64,000 bases of DNA from an uncultured Actinomycetota bacterium (GTDB taxonomy: Bacteria > Actinomycetota > Thermoleophilia > Gaiellales > F1-60-MAGs149): positions 74,231 to 138,230 of the forward strand of contig CAVYFW010000023.1 in assembly GCA_963767885.1 (NCBI GenBank). Direction: 5' to 3'. Every line of letters starts with the position of its first letter. Positions within the stretch are counted from its first letter, which is position 1. This document shows, in pieces, positions 1 to 41,729 of the stretch. A model generated the notes under the pieces. The model had not been told where the DNA came from. It did not search any database and was given only the letters and a program-made list of their open reading frames with translations. A program made the translations under genes and the position numbers.

Positions 1-89
1 GCGGCGTCGCCTCCGCCAGGTTCTCGTGGCTGACGCCCGGCGCGGCTGGCTACGTCGTCGTGCCCGCCGGCGCGCTCCGCACCTCCTAG
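1..89 (+). CDS. C-terminal end of an unidentified protein-coding gene (partial; continues upstream of the window)
   Basis: Frame 3 is open from the window edge to TAG 87-89. 27 of 28 codons end in G/C, unlike the other frames. The visible peptide ...GYVVVPAGALRTS* is too short for a product call. Confidence 0.4.
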   Translation, partial: GVASARFSWLTPGAAGYVVVPAGALRTS

Positions 90-168
90 CCGCCGACGCG
101 GCTGCCAAGACGCGGCGCCTCCGCCTCACGCCCCCGGGGCGGGGGCGCCGTGAAGCGCGCACCCCAGC

Positions 169-194
169 GGGCCGGCTCCTCCGGGAGCCGGCCC
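169..194 (+). terminator. GC hairpin downstream of the partial CDS (possible terminator without U-tract)
   Basis: Perfect 11-bp stem GGGCCGGCTCC/GGAGCCGGCCC with 4-nt loop TCCG, about 80 nt after the TAG. Confidence 0.35.
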
Positions 195-197
195 GGC

Positions 198-255
198 GTG
201 CATTTGCACCGTCCCGCGGCGGCGCGACCTGGTCGGCCGAGAGGTGCAATTGCAC
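198..255. repeat. Paired-palindrome intergenic element, copy 1
   Basis: GTGCATTTGCAC (198-209) + 34-nt GC spacer + GTGCAATTGCAC (244-255). The spacer cgtcccgcggcggcgcgacctggtcggccgagag is homologous to the spacers of the copies at 20075-20131 and 28898-28964. Confidence 0.8.
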
Positions 256-311
256 GCTCCGGCGGCCACCCGGAGCCCGCCACACGTGTCGGGCGCTACC
301 CTCTCCGCCAC

Positions 312-878
312 ATGGCAGAGATGGTCTCGACGAACCAGTTCAAGAACGGCATGCACATCGACGTGGAGGGCACCGTCTTCCGGATCGTCGAGTTCCAGCA
401 CGTCAAGCCGGGCAAGGGCGGCGCCTTCGTGCGCACGAAGCTCAAGGCCTTCGAGAGCGGCGCCGTCATCGATCGCACGTTCCGCGCCGGCGAGAAGTTC
501 CCCCGCATCATCACGTCGGTCGACGACATGCAGTTCCTGTACGACGACGGCGCCGACGTCGTCCTGATGAACACCGAGACGTACGAGCAAGTGCACCTCG
601 CGCGGGCCATCTGCGAGGACGAGCTGCGCTACGTCAAGGAGGGCGACACCGTCCAGCTCCTGTCGGTGGACGGGAAGCCGGCGACCATCCAGCTGCCCGC
701 CGCGGTCGAGCTCGAGGTCGTCGAGACCGAGCCGGGCGTGAAGGGCGACACCGTCTCCAACGTCACCAAGTCCGCGCGCCTCGAGACCGGCGCCACCGTG
801 TCCGTGCCCCTCTTCGTGAACGTCGGCGACCGCATCCGGGTCGACACCCGCGAGGGCCGCTACATCGCTCGCGCGTAG
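312..878 (+). CDS. efp: Elongation factor P
   Basis: 188 aa, MAEMVSTNQFKNGMHIDVEG..., with the KPGKGGAFVRTKLK loop typical of EF-P. ATG 312 is preferred over the in-frame GTG 150, which would cover the repeat element. TACCCT box at 297-302. Confidence 0.95.
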   Translation: MAEMVSTNQFKNGMHIDVEGTVFRIVEFQHVKPGKGGAFVRTKLKAFESGAVIDRTFRAGEKFPRIITSVDDMQFLYDDGADVVLMNTETYEQVHLARAICEDELRYVKEGDTVQLLSVDGKPATIQLPAAVELEVVETEPGVKGDTVSNVTKSARLETGATVSVPLFVNVGDRIRVDTREGRYIARA

Positions 879-893
879 TCGCGCCGCCGCACC

Positions 894-2659
894 GTGGCCC
901 GGCTGATCGACACCTCCCTCCGCCTCCTGTCGCAGGAGCCGCTCGAGGGCCGCGTGCCCACCGCGCGCCTGCTCGAGGTCGCCGCGGCGCTCGACCGCTC
1001 GGGCTACCACGCGCTCGAGGTGACCGGCGGCGGCTGCTTCCGCGCTGCTGTCGCCCGCGGCGTCGAGAGCCCGTGGGAGCGCATCCGCGCGATCAAGCTG
1101 CGCGCCACCCACACGCCCCTCGCCATGGCGCTGCGCGGCACGTTCCTCGTGTCCTCGCAGCCCGCCGCGCCCGACCTGGTGCGCCGCTTCATCCTCTGCG
1201 CCGCCGAGTCCGGGATCGACATCTTCCGGCTGCACGACCCCCTCAACGACGCCGACGACCTGGCCGCGGCGGCAGGCGCCGTGCGCGAGGCCGGCGCGCG
1301 CCTCTACGCCGGGCTCGTGTACGCCGACGGCCCGGGCGGCGACGACTTCCTGGTCGAGCGGGCGAAGGTCCTCGGCGCGCTCGGCGCCGACCGGGTGCTG
1401 CTGCACGACCAGGCCGGCTCGCTCGACGCCGCGGGCGTCGGCGATCTCGTGACGCGGCTCCGCGAGGCGGCCGGCGTGCCCGTCGGCCTCTACGTGCAGG
1501 GGCCGGGCGGCACCGCGCTGGCCGTGGCCGTCGAGGCGGCGCGCGCCGGCGCCGACCCGATCGCCGCCGCCGCCTACCCCGTCGCCGTGCCGACGCACCG
1601 CGCGTCGTCGGAGCTCCTGGCGCAGACCCTCGACGGCATCGGCTTCGACTCCGGCATCGACCAGGTCGCCGCCTGGGAGGCCGCGCTGCTCGTCGACCAG
1701 GCGCTCGGGGCCGGCGAGTCGCTGCCGCCGCCGCTGTCGGCCCACGTCTCGCTGCTCGCCGCGGTCAACCGCGTCCCGGCCGGCCTCGTGGCGTCCGCGG
1801 AGCGGCATCTCGCCGAGATCGGCGCGTCCGACCGCATGCAGGAGGTGCTGGCCGAGGTCAGCCGCATCCGCGACGAGCTCGGCCGCCCGCCGCTGGCGCC
1901 GCCGGTCGGGCTGATCCTCATGCGGCAGGCCATCGACCACGTGCTCAGCGGCCGCCGCTGGACCGGCACGTCGGAGGCCGTCCGCAGCATCGCGCTCGGC
2001 GAGTGGGGTCAGACGCCCGGCCCCGTCGACGAGGGCGTGCGCGCGCTGGCGGCGTCGCAGACGCCGGGCGACATCGAGCCGGCCGACTTCGACGAGGCGC
2101 GCGACGAGGTCGGCGAGCTGGCGACGTCCGAGGAGGAGCTCTGCCTCGTCGCCCTGTTCGGCGAGGCCGTCGTGCCGCTGCTCGAGCGCATGCGCAACCG
2201 CCAGCGGACGCCCGATCGCCGCGAGGGCGAGCCCGCCGAGGAGGCGCGCATCCGCCGGCTCGTGACGCTCCTCGAGGAGTCCGGGCTGTCGGAGCTGACG
2301 ATCGAGGAGGACGGCACCCGCATCACGCTGCGCAAGGAGGAGGAGCGGATCGTGCCCGTCGCCGCCGCGCCGCCGGCCGCGCAGCCGACGACCGCGCCGG
2401 ACGTCGCGCCGACGCACCTCGTCGTGGTCGAGAGCCCGATGGTCGGCACGTTCTACTCCGCCCCGACGCCCGACGACCCGCCGTTCGTCTCCGTCGGCGA
2501 CCAGGTCACCGTGGGGCAGACGCTGTGCATCCTCGAGGCGATGAAGCTGTTCAACGAGCTCAAGTGCGACGTGGCCGGCGTCGTGCGCCGCGTCCTGGTC
2601 GAGAACGCCGCTGCCGTGGAGTACGGGCAGCCGCTGTTCGAGCTCGAGCCCGTCCTGTC

Positions 2660-2663
<4 letters not shown>
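894..2663 (+). CDS. accB: Fusion protein: degenerate OadA/PycB-type carboxyltransferase-like domain + complete biotin carboxyl carrier protein (AccB)
   Basis: 589 aa. The N-terminal ~440 aa align with the oxaloacetate decarboxylase alpha / pyruvate carboxylase B TIM-barrel but lack the metal ligands (see finding). The C-terminal ~150 aa are a full AccB (IRRLVTLLEESGLSELTIEE..., SPMVGTFY, biotinyl-Lys motif CILEAMKLFNEL). Sits in the classic efp-accB-accC-nusB position. Confidence 0.85.
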
Positions 2664-4014
<1,351 letters not shown>

Positions 4015-4018
<4 letters not shown>

Positions 4019-4443
4019 GCTCGCGCCCGACACGCGGCCCGTCCCGCCGGCAGGCTCGCCGCGCGGCCATGATGCTGCTCTACCAGCGGTCGCTGACCGA
4101 GCGGCCGCTGGAGGAGCTCATCGCGCGCTACGAGGAGGACGCCGGGATCGAGCTGCCGGCCTACGGGCGGCGCCTGGTCGAGGACGTGGAGGCGAAGCAG
4201 CCGGAGCTCGACGCCGAGATCGACGCCCACGCGCACGGCTGGACGTCCGACCGCATCTCGCCGGTGGAGCGCGCGGCGCTGCGCATCGCGACGCTGGAGC
4301 TGCTGGATCGGCCCGACGTGCCGGCCGGCGCGGCGATCGAGGAGGCCGTCCGCCTCGCGCGCCGCTACGCGTCGCCGGAGGCCGCCTCGTTCGTCAACGG
4401 CGTGCTCGGCGCGATCGCGCGCGCGCACGGCGTGGGACGGTAG
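4015..4443 (+). CDS. nusB: Transcription antitermination factor NusB
   Basis: 142 aa. ATG overlaps the accC stop (ATGA). NusB-like helices (...RAALRIATLELL..., ASFVNGVLG). Conserved accBC-nusB neighbourhood. Confidence 0.88.
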
Positions 4444-4454
4444 AGTCCCGGCCG

Positions 4455-4640
4455 GTGGAGGGCGTCGACCGCCTGCAGGAGCTTCTCGCCCGCATCGACG
4501 CCGCCACGGCGCGCCTGGAGGGCAGCGACGAGCCCGACGAGGCGGTGGCGGCGCTGGCGGAGCTCGACGCGCTCGCGCAGGAGCTGTCGTCCGAGGTCGA
4601 GCGGCAGCGGCGCGCGGCCGCCGACGAGGAGGAGCGGTGA
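4455..4640 (+). CDS. xseB: Exodeoxyribonuclease VII small subunit-like protein
   Basis: 61-aa helical acidic protein (LQELLARIDAATARLEG...AVAALAELDAL). Lies directly upstream of and overlapping a polyprenyl synthase, as in the xseB-ispA arrangement. TAGAGT box 4441-4446 lies 8 nt before GTG. Confidence 0.55.
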   Translation: MEGVDRLQELLARIDAATARLEGSDEPDEAVAALAELDALAQELSSEVERQRRAAADEEER

Positions 4641-5545
4641 GCGCGGGGCTGGCGGGCGCCGCGCGGCGCGAGGATCCGATGCCGTTCCCCGACCACCTCG
4701 TCGCCCTCGTCGACCGCGAGCTCGCCGTGCTGGCGGTGCCGGGCGGCGACGACGACCTCGCGCCGTTCGACCAGGCCCTGCGCTACCCGCTCGAGGCCGG
4801 CGGCAAGCGGCTGCGGCCCGTGCTGCTGCTGGCGACCGTCGAGGCGCTCGGCGGCGACGTCGAGGGCGCGCTGCCCACCGCCGTCGCGCTCGAGTGCGTG
4901 CACACGTTCTCGCTCGTGCACGACGACCTGCCGGCGCTCGACGACGACGACCTGCGGCGCGGCCGCGAGACCGTCCACCGCGTCTACGGCGAGGACGTCG
5001 CCGTGCTGGTGGGCGACGCGCTGCTGACGGTCGCGTTCCGCCTCGTCGCCGAGCGGCAGGGCGGCCCCGCGGAGCGCCGGCTGCGCGCCACCGCGACGCT
5101 GGCGCGCGCCGTCGACGGCATGATCCGCGGCCAGTACCTCGACGTCCGGCCGGTGGACGGCCTCGACGAGGCGGGCCTGCGCCGCCTCTGCTCGCTGAAG
5201 ACGGGCCAGTTGATCGAGGCCGGCGTCGGGCTCGCGCTCGATCTCGTGGACCCGGCCGACGAGGTCGCGGCCGCGTACCGCGCGCTCGCCGCCGAGGTCG
5301 GCCTGGGCTTCCAGATCGTCGACGACGTGCTCGACGCCACGGGCTCCGACGACGCGCTCGGCAAGCGGGCCGGCGCGGACGCGGCGGCGGGCAAGCGCAC
5401 GCACGTCACCGTCCTCGGCCTGCCGCGGGCGCGGGAGCTCGCGCGCGCCAGCGAGGAGCGTGCATTTGCACGTCTCGACGAGCTGCCCGGCCGCCCGCGC
5501 TCGCTCGCCGCGATCGTGGAGCGCGTCTACCGGCGGGACCGCTGA
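4637..5545 (+). CDS. ispA: Polyprenyl (farnesyl/geranylgeranyl) diphosphate synthase
   Basis: 302 aa. First Asp-rich motif LVHDDLPALDDDDLRRG, second FQIVDDVLD. GTG overlaps the xseB stop. Confidence 0.88.
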   Translation: MSAGLAGAARREDPMPFPDHLVALVDRELAVLAVPGGDDDLAPFDQALRYPLEAGGKRLRPVLLLATVEALGGDVEGALPTAVALECVHTFSLVHDDLPALDDDDLRRGRETVHRVYGEDVAVLVGDALLTVAFRLVAERQGGPAERRLRATATLARAVDGMIRGQYLDVRPVDGLDEAGLRRLCSLKTGQLIEAGVGLALDLVDPADEVAAAYRALAAEVGLGFQIVDDVLDATGSDDALGKRAGADAAAGKRTHVTVLGLPRARELARASEERAFARLDELPGRPRSLAAIVERVYRRDR

Positions 5546-39380: not shown

Positions 39381-41729
39381 ATGCTCAGAGCGGTGCGCGC
39401 GATCCGCTTCGTCCCCGCCGACGGCACGCGCAGCCGACCGGTGGTCGGGCGGCTGCTCGGCTGGCTCGCGGCGCATCCGCTGGCGGCGGCGGCCCTGCCG
39501 GTGGGCGCCATCGCGGTGCTCGCGGCAGCCGCGGCGCTCGGCGCGGGCGCGCAGAGCACGCTCCTGCCGCTCCTCGGCGTCCCGCTGCTCCTGGCGACGA
39601 CCTTCCTCGCCTGGCCGGCGTGGCTGCCGTCGCTGGTGGCCTACGTCGTCGCCGCGGCGGCGGTGCTGGCGACGGACACCGCGGCGGCGGGCCAGCAGGT
39701 CGCCGCGCTCGTGGTCTGGGTGGCGGTCTCGCTGCTCGCGGCAGCCGGCGCCGCCCACATCGCGCGGGTGGCGCTGACCGCGCGGCTCGGCGCGGCGATC
39801 GCGGCGGCGCCGGACTCGGCGGCGGTCGAGGCCGCGCTGGCAGAGCTCGTCGACGGCGACGTCGTGTCGGCCGCGCTCGCGGTCGCCGACGACGTCCCGC
39901 CGGCGCTGGCCGAGATCGTGGCCGACGTCGGCGCGGCCGCCACGTGGACGGGCGTGACGATGCGGGTCGCGCCGGCGGACTCGTTCGCCCGCGCGCTCGT
40001 CGGCGGCCCGCTGGCGTTCGAGCCCGAGCCCGCGTCGGACGACGTCGGGCGCCGGACGTCGGCGGAGCGCGGGTACGGGTCGACGGCGGTGCTGCCCATC
40101 GGCGGGCGGGGCGTCCCGGCGCTGCTGGTGCTGGTGTCCCGGCGTTCGCACGCGTTCGGCGAGCGGCGCCTGCGTGCCCTGCGCCGGCGCTACGCCCCGC
40201 TGGCCGACGCCGTCGCCGCCCACCTGCTGCGGCGCGAGCACGAGCGGCGCCTGCTGGCCGCCGAGCGCGGGCGCGAGCTGTCCCGCGCGCTCGCGGCGGC
40301 GCCCGACGTCGAGGGCGTGCTGACGGCGGCGGCGCGCGGCGTGCAGGTGCTGACCGCCGCGGACGGGGTCGATGTCGCGGTCCGCGACGCCGAGCATCCG
40401 GAGCTGCTGTCCTGCCGCGCCACGGCCGGCGCGAGCGGCGGCCGCTACACGATCGACACGACGCACGAGCCGAGCGCGCTGCACGCGGCCATGGTGCGCG
40501 GCGAGCCGATGTGGATCCCCGACCGCCCGCGCTCGCGCATCGGCCACCCGGCGCCCGGCGACGTGGAGAGCGCGCTCTACGTGCCGCTGAGCGTCGGCGA
40601 CGAGGTCCGCGGCGGCTTCGCGGTCCTGTTCACGTCGCCGCGGATCATGCCGCCGGACGAGCTCGACCTGATCGCATCGGTGGCGGCGGAGATCGGGACG
40701 GCCTGGCAGCGCGCGGAGGCCGAGGAGCGGCTGCGCGACCAGGCCTCACGCGACGGCCTGACCGGTCTCCTCAACCACGCCGCGTTCCACGATCGCCTGG
40801 CCGCCGTGACGCGCGGCACGGCGCGCGGCGGCCGGCCGGTGGCGCTCGTCGTGGCCGACCTCGACCACCTCAAGCACCTCAACGACACGTACGGCCACCG
40901 CGTCGGCGACGAGGCGCTGCGTGCGGTGGCGCGGGCGCTCGGCGGCGCGGCGCGGACGGGCGACGCGATCGGGCGCGTGGGCGGCGACGAGTTCGCGTGG
41001 CTGCTGGCGGCGGCGAGCCCCGACGACGCGCTGGCCGCCGCGGGTCGCGTGGTCGAGGCGGTCGGCAGCGTCATCGTCGATCCGGCCGGCGCCATCTCGC
41101 TGTCGGCCGGCGTCGCCGTCGCCATCACGCCGACCGACCCGGATCGGCTCCTGGAGCGCGCGGACCAGGCCCTCAACGACGCGAAGGCGAGCGGCCGCGG
41201 CGTCGCGTCGCTGGCGCGGGAGGGCGAGGCGCTGCGGCTGCCCGGCGGCGAGCTGGTGCTGCCGGAGCCGCCGGGCGAGGGGTTCGCGAGCGCGGAGGAG
41301 GCGGCGCGCTGGCTCTCGCGCGAGTGGGTCGGGCTGTTCCGGGCGACGGCGGCCGCGGTGCTGCTGCTGGAGCCGGGCGGCGACGCGCTGCGGGTGGTGG
41401 CGTTCCACGAGCGCGGCCGCGACGACTGGCCGCTGTCCGACGAGCGCTACGTGCTCGCGGACTACCCGGCCACCACGCGGGCGCTGGAGACCGGCGAGGT
41501 GTACGCCTGCCGGGACGACGACCCGACGGCCGACCCGGCAGAGGTGCGCGAAGCACGACGGGACGGCTTCCGATCGCTCATGATCGTGCCCGTGCGCGCA
41601 GGCTCCCGTCCGCTCGGCTGCATCGAGGTCTTCGACGCCCGACCCCGCACGTTCGCGGCCGACGAGCGCCGCCTCGCCGTCGGCCTCGGACGCCACGCGG
41701 CGCTGCTGGTGGAGGGGCTCGCGCGTTGA
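39381..41729 (+). CDS. Membrane-anchored GAF-GGDEF-GAF diguanylate cyclase
   Basis: 782 aa. N-terminal TM helices, GGDEF domain (DGLTGLLNHAAF...RVGGDEFAWLL), flanking GAF-like regions. Confidence 0.8.
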   Translation: MLRAVRAIRFVPADGTRSRPVVGRLLGWLAAHPLAAAALPVGAIAVLAAAAALGAGAQSTLLPLLGVPLLLATTFLAWPAWLPSLVAYVVAAAAVLATDTAAAGQQVAALVVWVAVSLLAAAGAAHIARVALTARLGAAIAAAPDSAAVEAALAELVDGDVVSAALAVADDVPPALAEIVADVGAAATWTGVTMRVAPADSFARALVGGPLAFEPEPASDDVGRRTSAERGYGSTAVLPIGGRGVPALLVLVSRRSHAFGERRLRALRRRYAPLADAVAAHLLRREHERRLLAAERGRELSRALAAAPDVEGVLTAAARGVQVLTAADGVDVAVRDAEHPELLSCRATAGASGGRYTIDTTHEPSALHAAMVRGEPMWIPDRPRSRIGHPAPGDVESALYVPLSVGDEVRGGFAVLFTSPRIMPPDELDLIASVAAEIGTAWQRAEAEERLRDQASRDGLTGLLNHAAFHDRLAAVTRGTARGGRPVALVVADLDHLKHLNDTYGHRVGDEALRAVARALGGAARTGDAIGRVGGDEFAWLLAAASPDDALAAAGRVVEAVGSVIVDPAGAISLSAGVAVAITPTDPDRLLERADQALNDAKASGRGVASLAREGEALRLPGGELVLPEPPGEGFASAEEAARWLSREWVGLFRATAAAVLLLEPGGDALRVVAFHERGRDDWPLSDERYVLADYPATTRALETGEVYACRDDDPTADPAEVREARRDGFRSLMIVPVRAGSRPLGCIEVFDARPRTFAADERRLAVGLGRHAALLVEGLAR

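What the first reader, a model, noticed from the sequence alone, without database searches (positions are those of the whole stretch)
894..2663. AccB fused to a catalytically dead OadA/PycB-type carboxyltransferase domain
The gene in the accB slot of efp-accB-accC-nusB encodes 589 aa. Its C-terminal ~150 aa are a complete AccB. Its N-terminal ~440 aa align with the oxaloacetate decarboxylase alpha / pyruvate carboxylase B / transcarboxylase 5S TIM-barrel. Every residue I recall as a metal or catalytic ligand in that family is replaced. RD(A/G)HQS is RLLSQE (Asp and His lost). The carbamylated Lys in IKDM(A/S)G is LHDQAG. The H-x-H of LHLHCH is GLYVQG. It therefore cannot be a working two-subunit pyruvate carboxylase beta chain, and looks like a pseudo-enzyme scaffold attached to the BCCP of acetyl-CoA carboxylase.
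Basis: partly seen in the sequence, partly recalled or inferred. Interest (0 to 1): 0.65.

Follow-up and report, generated by a model that had tools for sequence, protein, structure and literature searches.

The report
AccB carrying a dead carboxyltransferase domain
The biotin-carrier protein (AccB) of this Thermoleophilia bacterium carries a large extra domain that is a well-folded, strongly conserved but catalytically dead copy of the pyruvate-carboxylase-type carboxyltransferase, apparently descended from working versions that other bacteria still keep in the same gene slot.

Summary
ORF 894-2663 (+) encodes one uninterrupted 589-aa protein. Residues ~1-440 form an OadA/PycB/5S-type carboxyltransferase (CT) fold. 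Residues ~448-589 are a complete AccB: N-domain, Pro/Ala linker, and thumb-type biotinyl domain with Lys551.

Every canonical CT catalytic residue is replaced: the metal Asp, the carbamylated Lys, His-x-His, the catalytic Thr and the gate Tyr. The same holds in all ~120 closest homologue clusters (Gaiellales/Thermoleophilia). The dead domain is nevertheless under purifying selection as strong as the biotinyl domain (dN/dS 0.07-0.27).

- The fusion is old and widespread.
- CT-AccB hybrids with intact active sites occupy the same efp-X-accC-nusB slot in Coriobacteriia and Syntrophomonadaceae.
- In Bacteroidales and Fibrobacteres the live hybrids follow accD-accA.
- Thermoleophilia carry three divergent dead subtypes that cluster together.

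The window's gene is therefore best read as an inactivated descendant of a live hybrid, not a new fusion. Its most likely present role is a non-catalytic assembly module for the AccB-AccC half of acetyl-CoA carboxylase. That role is inferred, not shown. The carboxyltransferase partner was not found in the window. I found no published description.

The parts
894..2663 (+). Gene for the 589-aa CT(dead)-AccB hybrid. GTG start; TGA stop at 2661-2663.
894..1703 (+). Residues 1-270: TIM-barrel of the OadA/PycB/5S carboxyltransferase fold, with all metal ligands replaced. The altered motifs are RLLSQE (921-938), LRGTF (1131-1145), FRLHDP (1224-1241), LLHDQAG (1398-1418) and GLYVQG (1485-1502).
   Evidence: Alignments. 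The model shows eight beta-strands with pLDDT above 90. Fold match. 76 of 270 positions are invariant across the family.
1704..2213 (+). Residues 271-440: helical C-terminal subdomain of the CT (Pfam PYC_OADA). The catalytic-Thr motif VTP(T/S)SQ is replaced by APPVGL (1896-1913).
2235..2333 (+). Residues 448-480: AccB N-terminal domain (helix plus two strands), sequence ARIRRLVTLLEESGLSELTIEEDGTRITLR. In E. coli this is the part of AccB that contacts biotin carboxylase.
   Evidence: TIGR00531 covers model positions 5-155. 4hr7_B matches at 449-584. Secondary structure.
2334..2423 (+). Residues 481-510: Pro/Ala-rich flexible linker (pLDDT below 50).
2424..2660 (+). Residues 511-589: biotinyl domain with the AccB-type 'thumb' (YSAPTPDDPPF, 2454-2486). 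The biotin-attachment Lys551 lies in EAMKL (codon 2544-2546).
   Evidence: Pfam Biotin_lipoyl. K551 is invariant. Thumb versus thumb-less alignment.
2660..4018 (+). accC, biotin carboxylase, 452 aa. Its GTG start overlaps the hybrid's TGA stop (GTGA), which suggests translational coupling.
   Evidence: Pfam Biotin_carb_N, CPSase_L_D2 and Biotin_carb_C. NCBIfam PRK08591 scores 643.8 against a cutoff of 597. Junction sequence.
321..878 (+). efp, 15 nt upstream of the hybrid. It marks the conserved efp-accB-accC-nusB neighbourhood.
4069..4443 (+). nusB, the downstream marker of the conserved neighbourhood. It is followed by a 61-aa ORF and a polyprenyl synthase, as in the arrangement I recall from B. 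subtilis.

Best explanation
The gene is the AccB (biotin carboxyl carrier) ortholog of a Thermoleophilia bacterium.

SHOWN:
- It is a complete, biotinylatable AccB preceded by a well-folded pyruvate-type carboxyltransferase domain.
- That domain has lost the metal site, the carbamylated Lys, the catalytic Thr and the biotin/gate residues.
- The loss is universal in the clade.
- The dead domain is under purifying selection as strong as that on the biotinyl domain.
- The gene is translationally coupled to accC.

INFERRED FROM COMPARATIVE DATA:
- It descends from a catalytically live CT-AccB hybrid. Such hybrids still exist in the same chromosomal slot in Coriobacteriia and Bacillota.
- The CT activity (pyruvate <-> oxaloacetate carboxyl transfer) was lost once, early in Thermoleophilia.
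- The now-useless ligands then decayed differently in three sublineages.

INFERRED, NOT TESTED:
- The domain is kept because the BC-BCCP module had become structurally dependent on it. CT domains of this family form the dimeric cores around which PC, OAD and transcarboxylase holoenzymes assemble.
- Today it would therefore act as a non-catalytic oligomerisation and assembly module. It would present the tethered BCCP to AccC and to a separately encoded acyl-CoA carboxyltransferase.
For: Dead site:
- The substitutions appear in the alignments to 5ks8, 2nx9 and 1rqb.
- They map, with matching residue spacings, onto R. etli PC D549, K718, H747, H749, T882, S885 and Y628.
- Thr882 is catalytically essential according to PMC5895798.
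- The protein falls below the curated cutoffs for PycB, OadA, 5S and HMGL-like.

Fold intact: pLDDT 87.6; TM 0.81-0.85 to OadA and 5S CT.

Constraint:
- All 117 alignable homologues lack the ligands, and the replacement residues are themselves invariant (L12, P16, F84, P116, Q202, G198, Y/F200).
- dN/dS is 0.07-0.27 for the CT against 0.09-0.24 for the biotinyl domain, in 7 genome pairs.
- Every Thermoleophilia locus fetched keeps the domain.

True AccB:
- TIGR00531 is above its cutoff over the whole model.
- The thumb and Lys551 are present.
- Synteny efp-X-accC-nusB-ispA-NADK-recN-pyrG holds in more than 35 genomes.
- In Syntrophomonadaceae the live hybrid sits in efp-spoIIIA-X-accC-asp23-nusB-folD-xseAB-ispA, where I recall accB sitting in B. 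subtilis.

Descent from a live hybrid:
- L022, L024, P0136, P0151 and the 120 Coriobacteriia clusters have all catalytic residues invariant, together with a full AccB tail.
- They are the best-scoring live relatives of the window's domain.
- The three dead subtypes group together with 98% NJ bootstrap and share Leu12 where live enzymes have Gly/Ala. Each keeps a different relic ligand: Asp11, Lys171 or neither.

Not a bacterial PycA/PycB-type assembly: AccC is 452 aa and lacks the helix at residues 454-472. No BT-like segment aligns to the hybrid.
Against: - No direct evidence exists for oligomerisation or scaffolding.
- The invariant residues concentrate at the C-terminal ends of the barrel strands, i.e. 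around the former active site. In the window's subtype the three pyruvate-binding residues (R10, Q14, R81; RePC R548, Q552, R621) are 100% retained. That pattern fits a preserved ligand pocket at least as well as a passive scaffold.
- The carboxyltransferase partner (AccA/AccD or PccB-type) was not found in the window or in any ±10 kb flank, so 'ACC' is assigned by orthology and synteny only.
- The monophyly of the dead subtypes rests on a distance tree that is prone to long-branch attraction.
Confidence: 0.55

Rival explanations
1. The dead CT domain is a ligand-sensing regulatory domain. The remodelled, metal-free pocket still binds pyruvate, oxaloacetate or a related carboxylate, or it binds the protein's own biotin/carboxybiotin. 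Occupancy would then control how available the tethered BCCP is to AccC or the carboxyltransferase, tying malonyl-CoA synthesis to central carbon status.
For: - R10, Q14 and R81 are invariant in all 117 homologues of the window's subtype, alongside invariant E42, D115 and D172 and new invariant H114 and Q202 around the old pocket.
- Invariant positions cluster at the strand C-termini.
- dN/dS is as low as in a functional domain.
Against: - The other two dead subtypes in the same genomic slot have lost Q14 and/or R81. The triad is therefore not a shared requirement of dead hybrids.
- The biotin-pocket residues (Thr, Ser, Tyr) are gone.
- These Arg/Gln/Asp residues may be kept simply as a buried structural network.
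- No binding data exist.
Confidence: 0.2
2. The domain has taken on a new, metal-independent catalytic activity: a different carboxyl-transfer or decarboxylation reaction, or a different substrate.
For: - Very strong conservation of a specific new residue set in the pocket (H114, Y200, Q202, P173, F84).
- The BCCP is still tethered in cis, as in working enzymes.
Against: - All residues known to stabilise the enolate and shuttle the proton in this family are absent.
- I know of no metal-free member of the DRE-TIM/HMGL-like superfamily.
- Several new residues are hydrophobic fillers (L11, L12, F84, P116, P173).
- The three dead subtypes share no alternative catalytic set.
Confidence: 0.07
3. It is still a working beta subunit of a two-subunit pyruvate carboxylase (or an OadA) that uses non-canonical ligands.
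For: - Overall PycB-like architecture, next to a BC gene. PRK09282 aligns end to end.
- Live relatives in the same slot probably are such enzymes.
Against: - Asp, the carbamylated Lys, both His and the catalytic Thr are all replaced, mostly by residues that cannot ligate a metal.
- Scores fall below every curated cutoff.
- The BC lacks the PycA helix.
- No oadB or oadG among the 40 largest window genes.
Confidence: 0.03
4. It is an artefact or a decaying pseudogene: assembly read-through of two genes, or a relic domain drifting neutrally.
For: The window does contain frameshift-split genes, so the assembly has indel errors or pseudogenes.
Against: - The same uninterrupted architecture occurs in more than 100 independent clusters and more than 35 genomes.
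- dN/dS is 0.07-0.27.
- 76 of 270 barrel positions are invariant.
- The fold is predicted with high confidence.
Confidence: 0.01

Closest known systems
E. coli-type AccB (BCCP of multi-subunit acetyl-CoA carboxylase; TIGR00531; PDB 4HR7 chain B, 1BDO)
   Same: - The C-terminal ~140 residues match the whole AccB model above its cutoff.
- N-terminal BC-contacting domain, Pro/Ala linker, thumb-containing biotinyl domain and EAMK biotinylation motif are all present.
- The gene sits directly upstream of accC, with overlap, in the efp...nusB neighbourhood.
   Different: - It carries a ~440-residue N-terminal domain that canonical AccB (about 156 aa) lacks.
- The partner carboxyltransferase has not been identified.
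Beta subunit of two-subunit pyruvate carboxylase (PycB; Methylobacillus flagellatus 5KS8; NCBIfam PRK09282)
   Same: - Best sequence and fold match (E 6e-63; Foldseek 4e-39).
- Same order: CT, then linker region, then BCCP.
- Adjacent to a BC gene.
   Different: - All metal and catalytic residues are lost.
- There is no BT-like beta-sheet segment, and the BC has no C-terminal hydrophobic helix.
- The BCCP is AccB-type with a thumb.
- The score is below the family cutoff.
Live-site CT-AccB hybrids of Coriobacteriia (e.g. Raoultibacter phocaeensis, Paraeggerthella), Syntrophomonadaceae and others. Databases name them 'acetyl-CoA carboxylase biotin carboxyl carrier protein' or 'oxaloacetate decarboxylase alpha'. 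I found no experimental study.
   Same: - Identical domain architecture, including the full AccB tail with thumb.
- Same chromosomal slot (efp-X-accC-asp23/nusB).
- They are the closest live relatives of the window's CT domain.
   Different: - Their RD(A/G)(H/Q)Q, KDM, HxH and VTPTSQ motifs are invariant (113-120 of 120 clusters).
- They pass the PycB model cutoff (744-823 bits).
- They share about 31-35% identity with the window's CT domain.
OadA (oxaloacetate decarboxylase alpha, Vibrio cholerae 2NX9) and transcarboxylase 5S (Propionibacterium shermanii 1RQB)
   Same: Same CT fold (TM 0.81-0.85). In both, the CT dimer is a building block of the holoenzyme.
   Different: - No metal site.
- No OadB/OadG or 12S partner genes nearby.
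- Equivalog scores are far below cutoff (278 against 756; 162 against 827).
BADC proteins of plant plastid ACCase (non-biotinylatable BCCP look-alikes). This comparison comes from my own knowledge.
   Same: A catalytically dead paralogue of a biotin-enzyme component that is retained inside the ACC system.
   Different: There the dead part is the carrier, and it acts in trans as a negative regulator. Here the carrier is intact and the dead part is a fused pyruvate-type CT domain.

Membership tests
AccB / BCCP of acetyl-CoA carboxylase (TIGR00531) | Full-length match to the curated equivalog model above its cutoff | tested here: met
   130 bits against a cutoff of 115.2; residues 452-585 cover model positions 5-155 of 156.
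AccB / BCCP of acetyl-CoA carboxylase (TIGR00531) | Biotin-attachment Lys in the (E)AMK(M/L) hairpin, plus the AccB-specific 'thumb' insertion | tested here: met
   EAMKL at 548-552 with K551 invariant. The thumb YSAPTPDDPPF aligns without a gap, whereas canonical PycB/OadA BCCPs show a 7-residue gap there.
AccB / BCCP of acetyl-CoA carboxylase (TIGR00531) | Encoded immediately upstream of accC in the conserved efp...accB-accC...nusB neighbourhood | tested here: met
   The stop overlaps the accC start. Synteny holds in more than 35 genomes, and in a Bacillota locus with spoIIIA-X-accC-asp23-nusB-folD-xseAB-ispA.
AccB / BCCP of acetyl-CoA carboxylase (TIGR00531) | Delivers carboxybiotin to an acetyl-CoA carboxyltransferase (AccA/AccD or AccD/PccB-type) | not testable with these tools
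   No Carboxyl_trans or ACCA gene among the 40 largest window genes. No tblastn hit with E. coli AccA/AccD in the window or the Thermoleophilia flanks. Whole genomes could not be scanned.
Two-subunit pyruvate carboxylase beta subunit (PycB) | CT-domain fold (TIM barrel plus helical PYC_OADA subdomain) | tested here: met
   Foldseek 5ks8_D E 4e-39; 2nx9 TMt 0.85; 1rqb TMt 0.81.
Two-subunit pyruvate carboxylase beta subunit (PycB) | Divalent-metal site: Asp of RDxHQ, carbamylated Lys of KDM, and His-x-His | tested here: not met
   The four positions are L11, H171, Y200 and Q202. The same holds in 117 of 117 homologues.
Two-subunit pyruvate carboxylase beta subunit (PycB) | Catalytic Thr (RePC T882) and biotin-pocket Ser/Lys in VTP(S/T)S(K/Q) | tested here: not met
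   The motif is APPVGL, with P336 at the Thr position; the family shows S/Q/A/P there. The essential role of T882 is stated in PMC5895798.
Two-subunit pyruvate carboxylase beta subunit (PycB) | Curated model cutoff (NCBIfam PRK09282 and equivalogs PRK14041, PRK14042) | tested here: not met
   335 against 402; 191 against 734; 202 against 1182. Live hybrids score 744-823.
Two-subunit pyruvate carboxylase beta subunit (PycB) | BT-like domain built from beta-subunit sheets around a hydrophobic C-terminal helix (residues 454-472) of a ~471-aa alpha subunit (PMC5059739) | tested here: not met
   The window BC is 452 aa, and its BC domain ends at 441. 5ks8_C residues 442-540 find no counterpart in the hybrid. 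The paper was read.
Oxaloacetate decarboxylase Na+ pump, alpha subunit (OadA) | Equivalog score, and oadB/oadG partner genes | tested here: not met
   TIGR01108 scores 278 against 756.5. No OAD_beta or OAD_gamma among the 40 largest window genes.
HMGL-like / DRE-TIM metallolyase domain (Pfam PF00682) | Pfam gathering threshold | tested here: not met
   22.2 bits against a cutoff of 29.
Pseudoenzyme (operational definition) | Homologous and isostructural to an enzyme family, lacking the residues essential for its chemistry, yet evolving under purifying selection | tested here: met
   homology, fold, lost residues; dN/dS 0.07-0.27; 76 of 270 positions invariant.
Pseudoenzyme (operational definition) | Experimentally shown lack of catalytic activity | not testable with these tools
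   Requires an enzyme assay of the purified protein with AccC.

The most novel reading that the evidence does not exclude
The dead CT domain is not a passive relic. It would be a metal-free ligand-binding module built from the old pyruvate pocket, with the Arg-Gln-Arg triad kept and new invariant His114, Tyr200 and Gln202. It would gate the cis-tethered BCCP and so make acetyl-CoA carboxylase allosterically responsive to a central-carbon metabolite. This would be a new regulatory principle for bacterial multi-subunit ACC.

More broadly, CT-AccB hybrids would show that a single AccB can serve two different carboxyltransferases (pyruvate-type and acetyl-CoA-type). That would include possible ATP-independent oxaloacetate:acetyl-CoA transcarboxylases in the accD-accA-hybrid operons.
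Probability: 0.2. Interest if true: 0.8.

Novelty: new variant of a known kind. Interest (0 to 1): 0.6.

Why it matters
**A class-wide pseudoenzyme.** The AccB of an entire, poorly studied actinobacterial class turns out to be a ~590-aa protein. Three quarters of it is a conserved pseudoenzyme, and current annotation hides this: the same gene is variously called 'AccB', 'oxaloacetate decarboxylase alpha' or 'biotin/lipoyl-containing protein'. Metabolic reconstructions that read it as OadA or PycB would wrongly credit Thermoleophilia with pyruvate carboxylase or oxaloacetate decarboxylase activity.

**A natural series for studying enzyme death.** The data lay out live hybrid, then three differently decayed dead hybrids, all in one chromosomal slot. 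This could show how an enzyme domain becomes a retained non-catalytic part of a complex.

**Possible shared carriers.** The live hybrids suggest that one AccB/AccC pair may feed both pyruvate carboxylation and acetyl-CoA carboxylation. Where they sit in accD-accA-hybrid operons without a BC, they suggest a possible new transcarboxylase. Both ideas can be tested directly in cultured Eggerthellaceae.

Tried and rejected
- **CT partner search.** I looked for a real carboxyltransferase in the window. Pfam scans of the 40 largest of 64 called genes found none. tblastn with E. coli AccA and AccD against the window and all loci found none in the window or the Thermoleophilia flanks. Whole genomes could not be scanned with these tools, so the partner remains unknown.
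- **Two-subunit pyruvate carboxylase.** Rejected: ligands lost, curated cutoffs failed, and no BT-like domain or PycA helix.
- **Assembly artefact or pseudogene.** Considered because the window has frameshift-split genes. Rejected on conservation and dN/dS.
- **Literature.** Searches on BCCP with Thermoleophilia, pseudoenzyme with carboxyltransferase, inactive CT domain, and Gaiella with ACC found no description of the fusion.
- **Third dead subtype.** I tried to place its lineage (L087) by its housekeeping neighbours. It was equidistant from everything. Only one family member carries a taxon name (Thermoleophilia).
- **Mapping conservation in 3-D.** Not possible, because model coordinates are not exposed. 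I used strand positions from the DSSP string instead.
- **Promoter and terminator scan of 1-4700.** It found nothing. This is uninformative for a 75% GC actinobacterium, beyond being consistent with one operon.
Full report
**1. What is in the sequence**

ORF 894..2663 on the + strand is a single open frame of 589 codons with a GTG start. Its codon-position GC pattern (0.79/0.51/0.98) is that of a real gene in this 75% GC window.

It starts 15 nt after the efp stop codon. Its TGA stop overlaps the GTG start of the next gene (GTGA), which suggests translational coupling. No terminator-like site lies between efp and nusB.

The neighbours are as follows:

| Coordinates | Gene |
|---|---|
| 321-878 | efp |
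| 894-2663 | the hybrid |
| 2660-4018 | accC |
| 4069-4443 | nusB |
| 4455-4640 | 61-aa ORF |
| 4637-5545 | polyprenyl synthase |
| further on | tlyA-like methyltransferase, NAD kinase, recN, pyrG |

**2. Domain content**

- Pfam finds PYC_OADA (292-434) and Biotin_lipoyl (511-584). It gives only a sub-threshold HMGL-like match (22.2 bits against 29) for residues 4-250.
- The NCBIfam AccB equivalog TIGR00531 is passed (130 against 115.2), with model positions 5-155 of 156 aligned to residues 452-585.
- The tail is therefore a whole AccB: the N-terminal BC-contacting domain (ARIRRLVTLLEESGLSELTIEEDGTRITLR), a Pro/Ala linker, and a biotinyl domain with the AccB 'thumb' and Lys551 in EAMKL.
- The PycB model PRK09282 aligns end to end but scores 335 against a cutoff of 402. 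All OadA, PycB and 5S equivalogs fall far below their cutoffs.
- The best PDB sequence matches are the beta subunit of the two-subunit pyruvate carboxylase 5KS8 (6e-63), OadA 2NX9 and transcarboxylase 5S 1RQB.
- An AlphaFold2 model built on 62 family sequences is confident: pLDDT 87.6, low only in the two linkers. Its CT part superposes on 2NX9 and 1RQB with target-normalised TM 0.81-0.85.

**3. The active site is gone**

In the HMMER and MAFFT alignments:

| Live motif | Window sequence |
|---|---|
| RD(G/A)HQS | R10-L-L-S-Q-E |
| LRGQNLLGY | LRGTFLVSS |
| IKDM(A/S)G | L-H171-D-Q-A-G |
| H-L-H-x-H | G198-L-Y200-V-Q202 |
| VTP(T/S)SQ | A-P336-P-V-G-L |

The residue spacings match the R. etli PC numbering I recall: R548/D549/Q552, R621/Y628, K718, H747/H749 and T882/S885/K886.

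The lost residues are therefore:
- the metal Asp
- the carbamylated Lys
- both metal His
- the catalytic Thr (stated to be essential in PMC5895798)
- the biotin-pocket Ser
- the gate Tyr

Only the three substrate-contacting residues remain: R10, Q14 and R81.

**4. It is not a one-off and not decaying**

- The 120 best homologue clusters share 51-96% identity and are named Gaiellales, Thermoleophilia or Actinomycetota where named at all. They have the same architecture.
- All 117 alignable sequences lack the ligands, and the replacement residues are themselves nearly invariant: L12, P16, F84, H114, P116, P173, G198, Y/F200, Q202.
- The barrel has 76 invariant positions out of 270, a density like that of the biotinyl domain.
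- Nei-Gojobori dN/dS in seven genome pairs is 0.07-0.27 for the dead CT, 0.09-0.24 for the biotinyl domain and 0.17-0.70 for the linker.
- Across more than 35 Thermoleophilia genomes the order efp-hybrid-accC-nusB-ispA-NADK-recN-pyrG is conserved, and none has lost the domain.
- A few long-read assemblies show frameshift-split copies, including L001.

**5. Where it comes from**

The genome scan and the exhaustive representative search show that CT-AccB hybrids are widespread. They fall into several classes:

- **(a) Live sites in the same slot.**
  - Examples are Eggerthellales UBA948 (L022), L024, and 120 Coriobacteriia clusters that include cultured Raoultibacter, Paraeggerthella and Rubneribacter.
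  - All catalytic residues are invariant in this clade.
  - These proteins pass both the PycB cutoff (744-823 bits) and the AccB cutoff (138-139 bits).
  - In Syntrophomonadaceae the live hybrid sits in efp-spoIIIA-X-accC-asp23-nusB-folD-xseAB-ispA, the position where I recall accB sitting in B. subtilis.
  - A genome paper on Anaerosomatales (Coriobacteriia) annotates a two-gene pyruvate carboxylase (PMC9686372). I did not check whether that pair is this hybrid plus accC.
- **(b) Live sites downstream of accD-accA.** In Bacteroidales, Fibrobacteres and two unnamed MAGs (L029, L031, L033, L037), no BC was detected within the fetched flanks.
- **(c) Three dead subtypes, all in the efp-X-accC slot**:

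| Subtype | Asp11 position | Lys171 position | HxH positions |
|---|---|---|---|
| Window's Gaiellales type (R-L/I/V-L) | lost | lost (H/N/L) | Y..Q |
| Miltoncostaeaceae type (R-D-L-A-P/T) | kept | lost (S/A) | Q/I..Q |
| Third type (R-S-L) | lost | kept | D..D |

  One member of the third type carries the name Thermoleophilia.
- **(d) Further lineages degenerated independently.** Examples occur in Bacillota and Hydrogenedentota.

The three dead subtypes group together in a bootstrapped NJ tree (98%), with a long-branch-attraction caveat. They share Leu at position 12, where live enzymes have Gly/Ala. The best-scoring live relative of the window's domain (P0136) belongs to the accC-linked live hybrids.

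The simplest history is as follows:
1. A live CT-AccB hybrid occupied the accB slot.
2. It was inactivated once, early in Thermoleophilia.
3. The unused ligands then decayed divergently while the domain itself was kept.

**6. What it is not**

- *A bacterial two-subunit PC.* Apart from the dead site, those enzymes assemble through a BT-like domain. That domain is made of beta-subunit sheets wrapped around a hydrophobic helix at residues 454-472 of a ~471-aa alpha subunit (PMC5059739). Here the BC is 452 aa with its BC domain ending at 441. It passes the ACC BC subfamily model PRK08591. The BT-like segment of 5KS8_C has no counterpart in the hybrid.
- *An OAD pump or a transcarboxylase.* No oadB/oadG, 12S or any Carboxyl_trans/ACCA gene is among the 40 largest of the 64 genes called in the window.
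- *An artefact.* See section 4.

**7. How it most likely works**

Shown: the protein is a biotinylatable AccB, co-expressed with AccC, carrying a folded, constrained, catalytically dead CT domain.

Inferred: the domain survives because the BC-BCCP module depends on it structurally. In PC, OAD and transcarboxylase the CT dimer is the architectural core. The hybrid lost chemistry but not architecture, and it now presents its tethered BCCP to AccC and to a carboxyltransferase encoded elsewhere. I put about 0.55 on this composite reading. Within it I put about 0.9 on 'dead for canonical chemistry', about 0.8 on 'derived from a live hybrid' and about 0.45 on 'scaffold'.

The main rival, at about 0.2, is a ligand-sensing or BCCP-gating role for the remodelled pocket. 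It is suggested by the 100% retention of R10, Q14 and R81 and by invariant residues clustering at the strand C-termini. It is weakened because the two other dead subtypes have lost parts of that triad.

New catalysis (about 0.07), residual PC activity (about 0.03) and artefact (about 0.01) are unlikely.

**8. Novelty**

Databases hold thousands of these proteins under inconsistent names. In the searchable literature I found no description of the hybrid or of its dead form.

It is a new variant of known kinds (AccB, and PycB-type CT): a class-wide pseudoenzyme domain fused to the ACC carrier.

A practical consequence is that 'OadA/PycB' annotations in Thermoleophilia MAGs should not be read as anaplerotic or decarboxylase capacity.

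Noticed in passing
L029:826-4523, L031:8144-11941, L033:7456-11309, L037:8185-11932: In Bacteroidales, Fibrobacteres and two unnamed MAGs a live-site CT-AccB hybrid directly follows accD-accA, and no biotin carboxylase was detected within the fetched flanks. This looks like a candidate ATP-independent oxaloacetate:acetyl-CoA transcarboxylase, with AccAD and a 5S-type CT sharing one AccB.
   Followed up: partly
L087:8001-9911 (P0208) and relatives P0450-P0460: A third dead subtype sits in the same efp-X-accC-nusB slot. It keeps the Lys of KDM, replaces His-x-His with an invariant Asp-x-Asp, and has Ser/Ala in place of the metal Asp. The site may have been remodelled rather than emptied.
   Followed up: partly
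L085:8001-11244 (P0152, Bacillota MAG): A CT-AccB hybrid with Asp and His-x-His kept but the carbamylated Lys changed to Met and the Thr to Asp. It is followed by a BC gene and sits among acyl-CoA dehydrogenase, 2-hydroxyacyl-CoA dehydratase (HGD-D/BcrAD) and AMP-ligase genes. It may be a carboxylase with a different substrate.
   Followed up: no
window:6471-7447: A PLP-dependent (threonine-dehydratase-like) gene is spread over three reading frames within about 300 bp. This means either two frameshifts in a pseudogene or assembly indel errors.
   Followed up: partly
window:55885-57585 (- strand): An IlvD/Edd-family dehydratase gene is likewise broken across at least three frames. Together with the split genes in the related long-read contigs L001 and L082, this points to indel errors in the assembly.
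   Followed up: partly
window:20326-22077 (- strand): An apparent 584-aa AmtB-P-II fusion. The P-II part begins with its own MTMKKIEAFIR after an Arg-rich spacer, so this is probably amtB-glnK read through without an in-frame stop rather than a true fusion.
   Followed up: partly
window:59350-60561: A 403-aa protein with ATP-grasp_2 and the ATP-citrate-lyase citrate-binding domain, i.e. like the large subunit of citryl-CoA or succinyl-CoA synthetase.
   Followed up: no
window:22368-24188 and 39393-41729: Two large c-di-GMP signalling proteins: PAS-GGDEF-HD-GYP-type (HD_5) and GGDEF-GAF.
   Followed up: no
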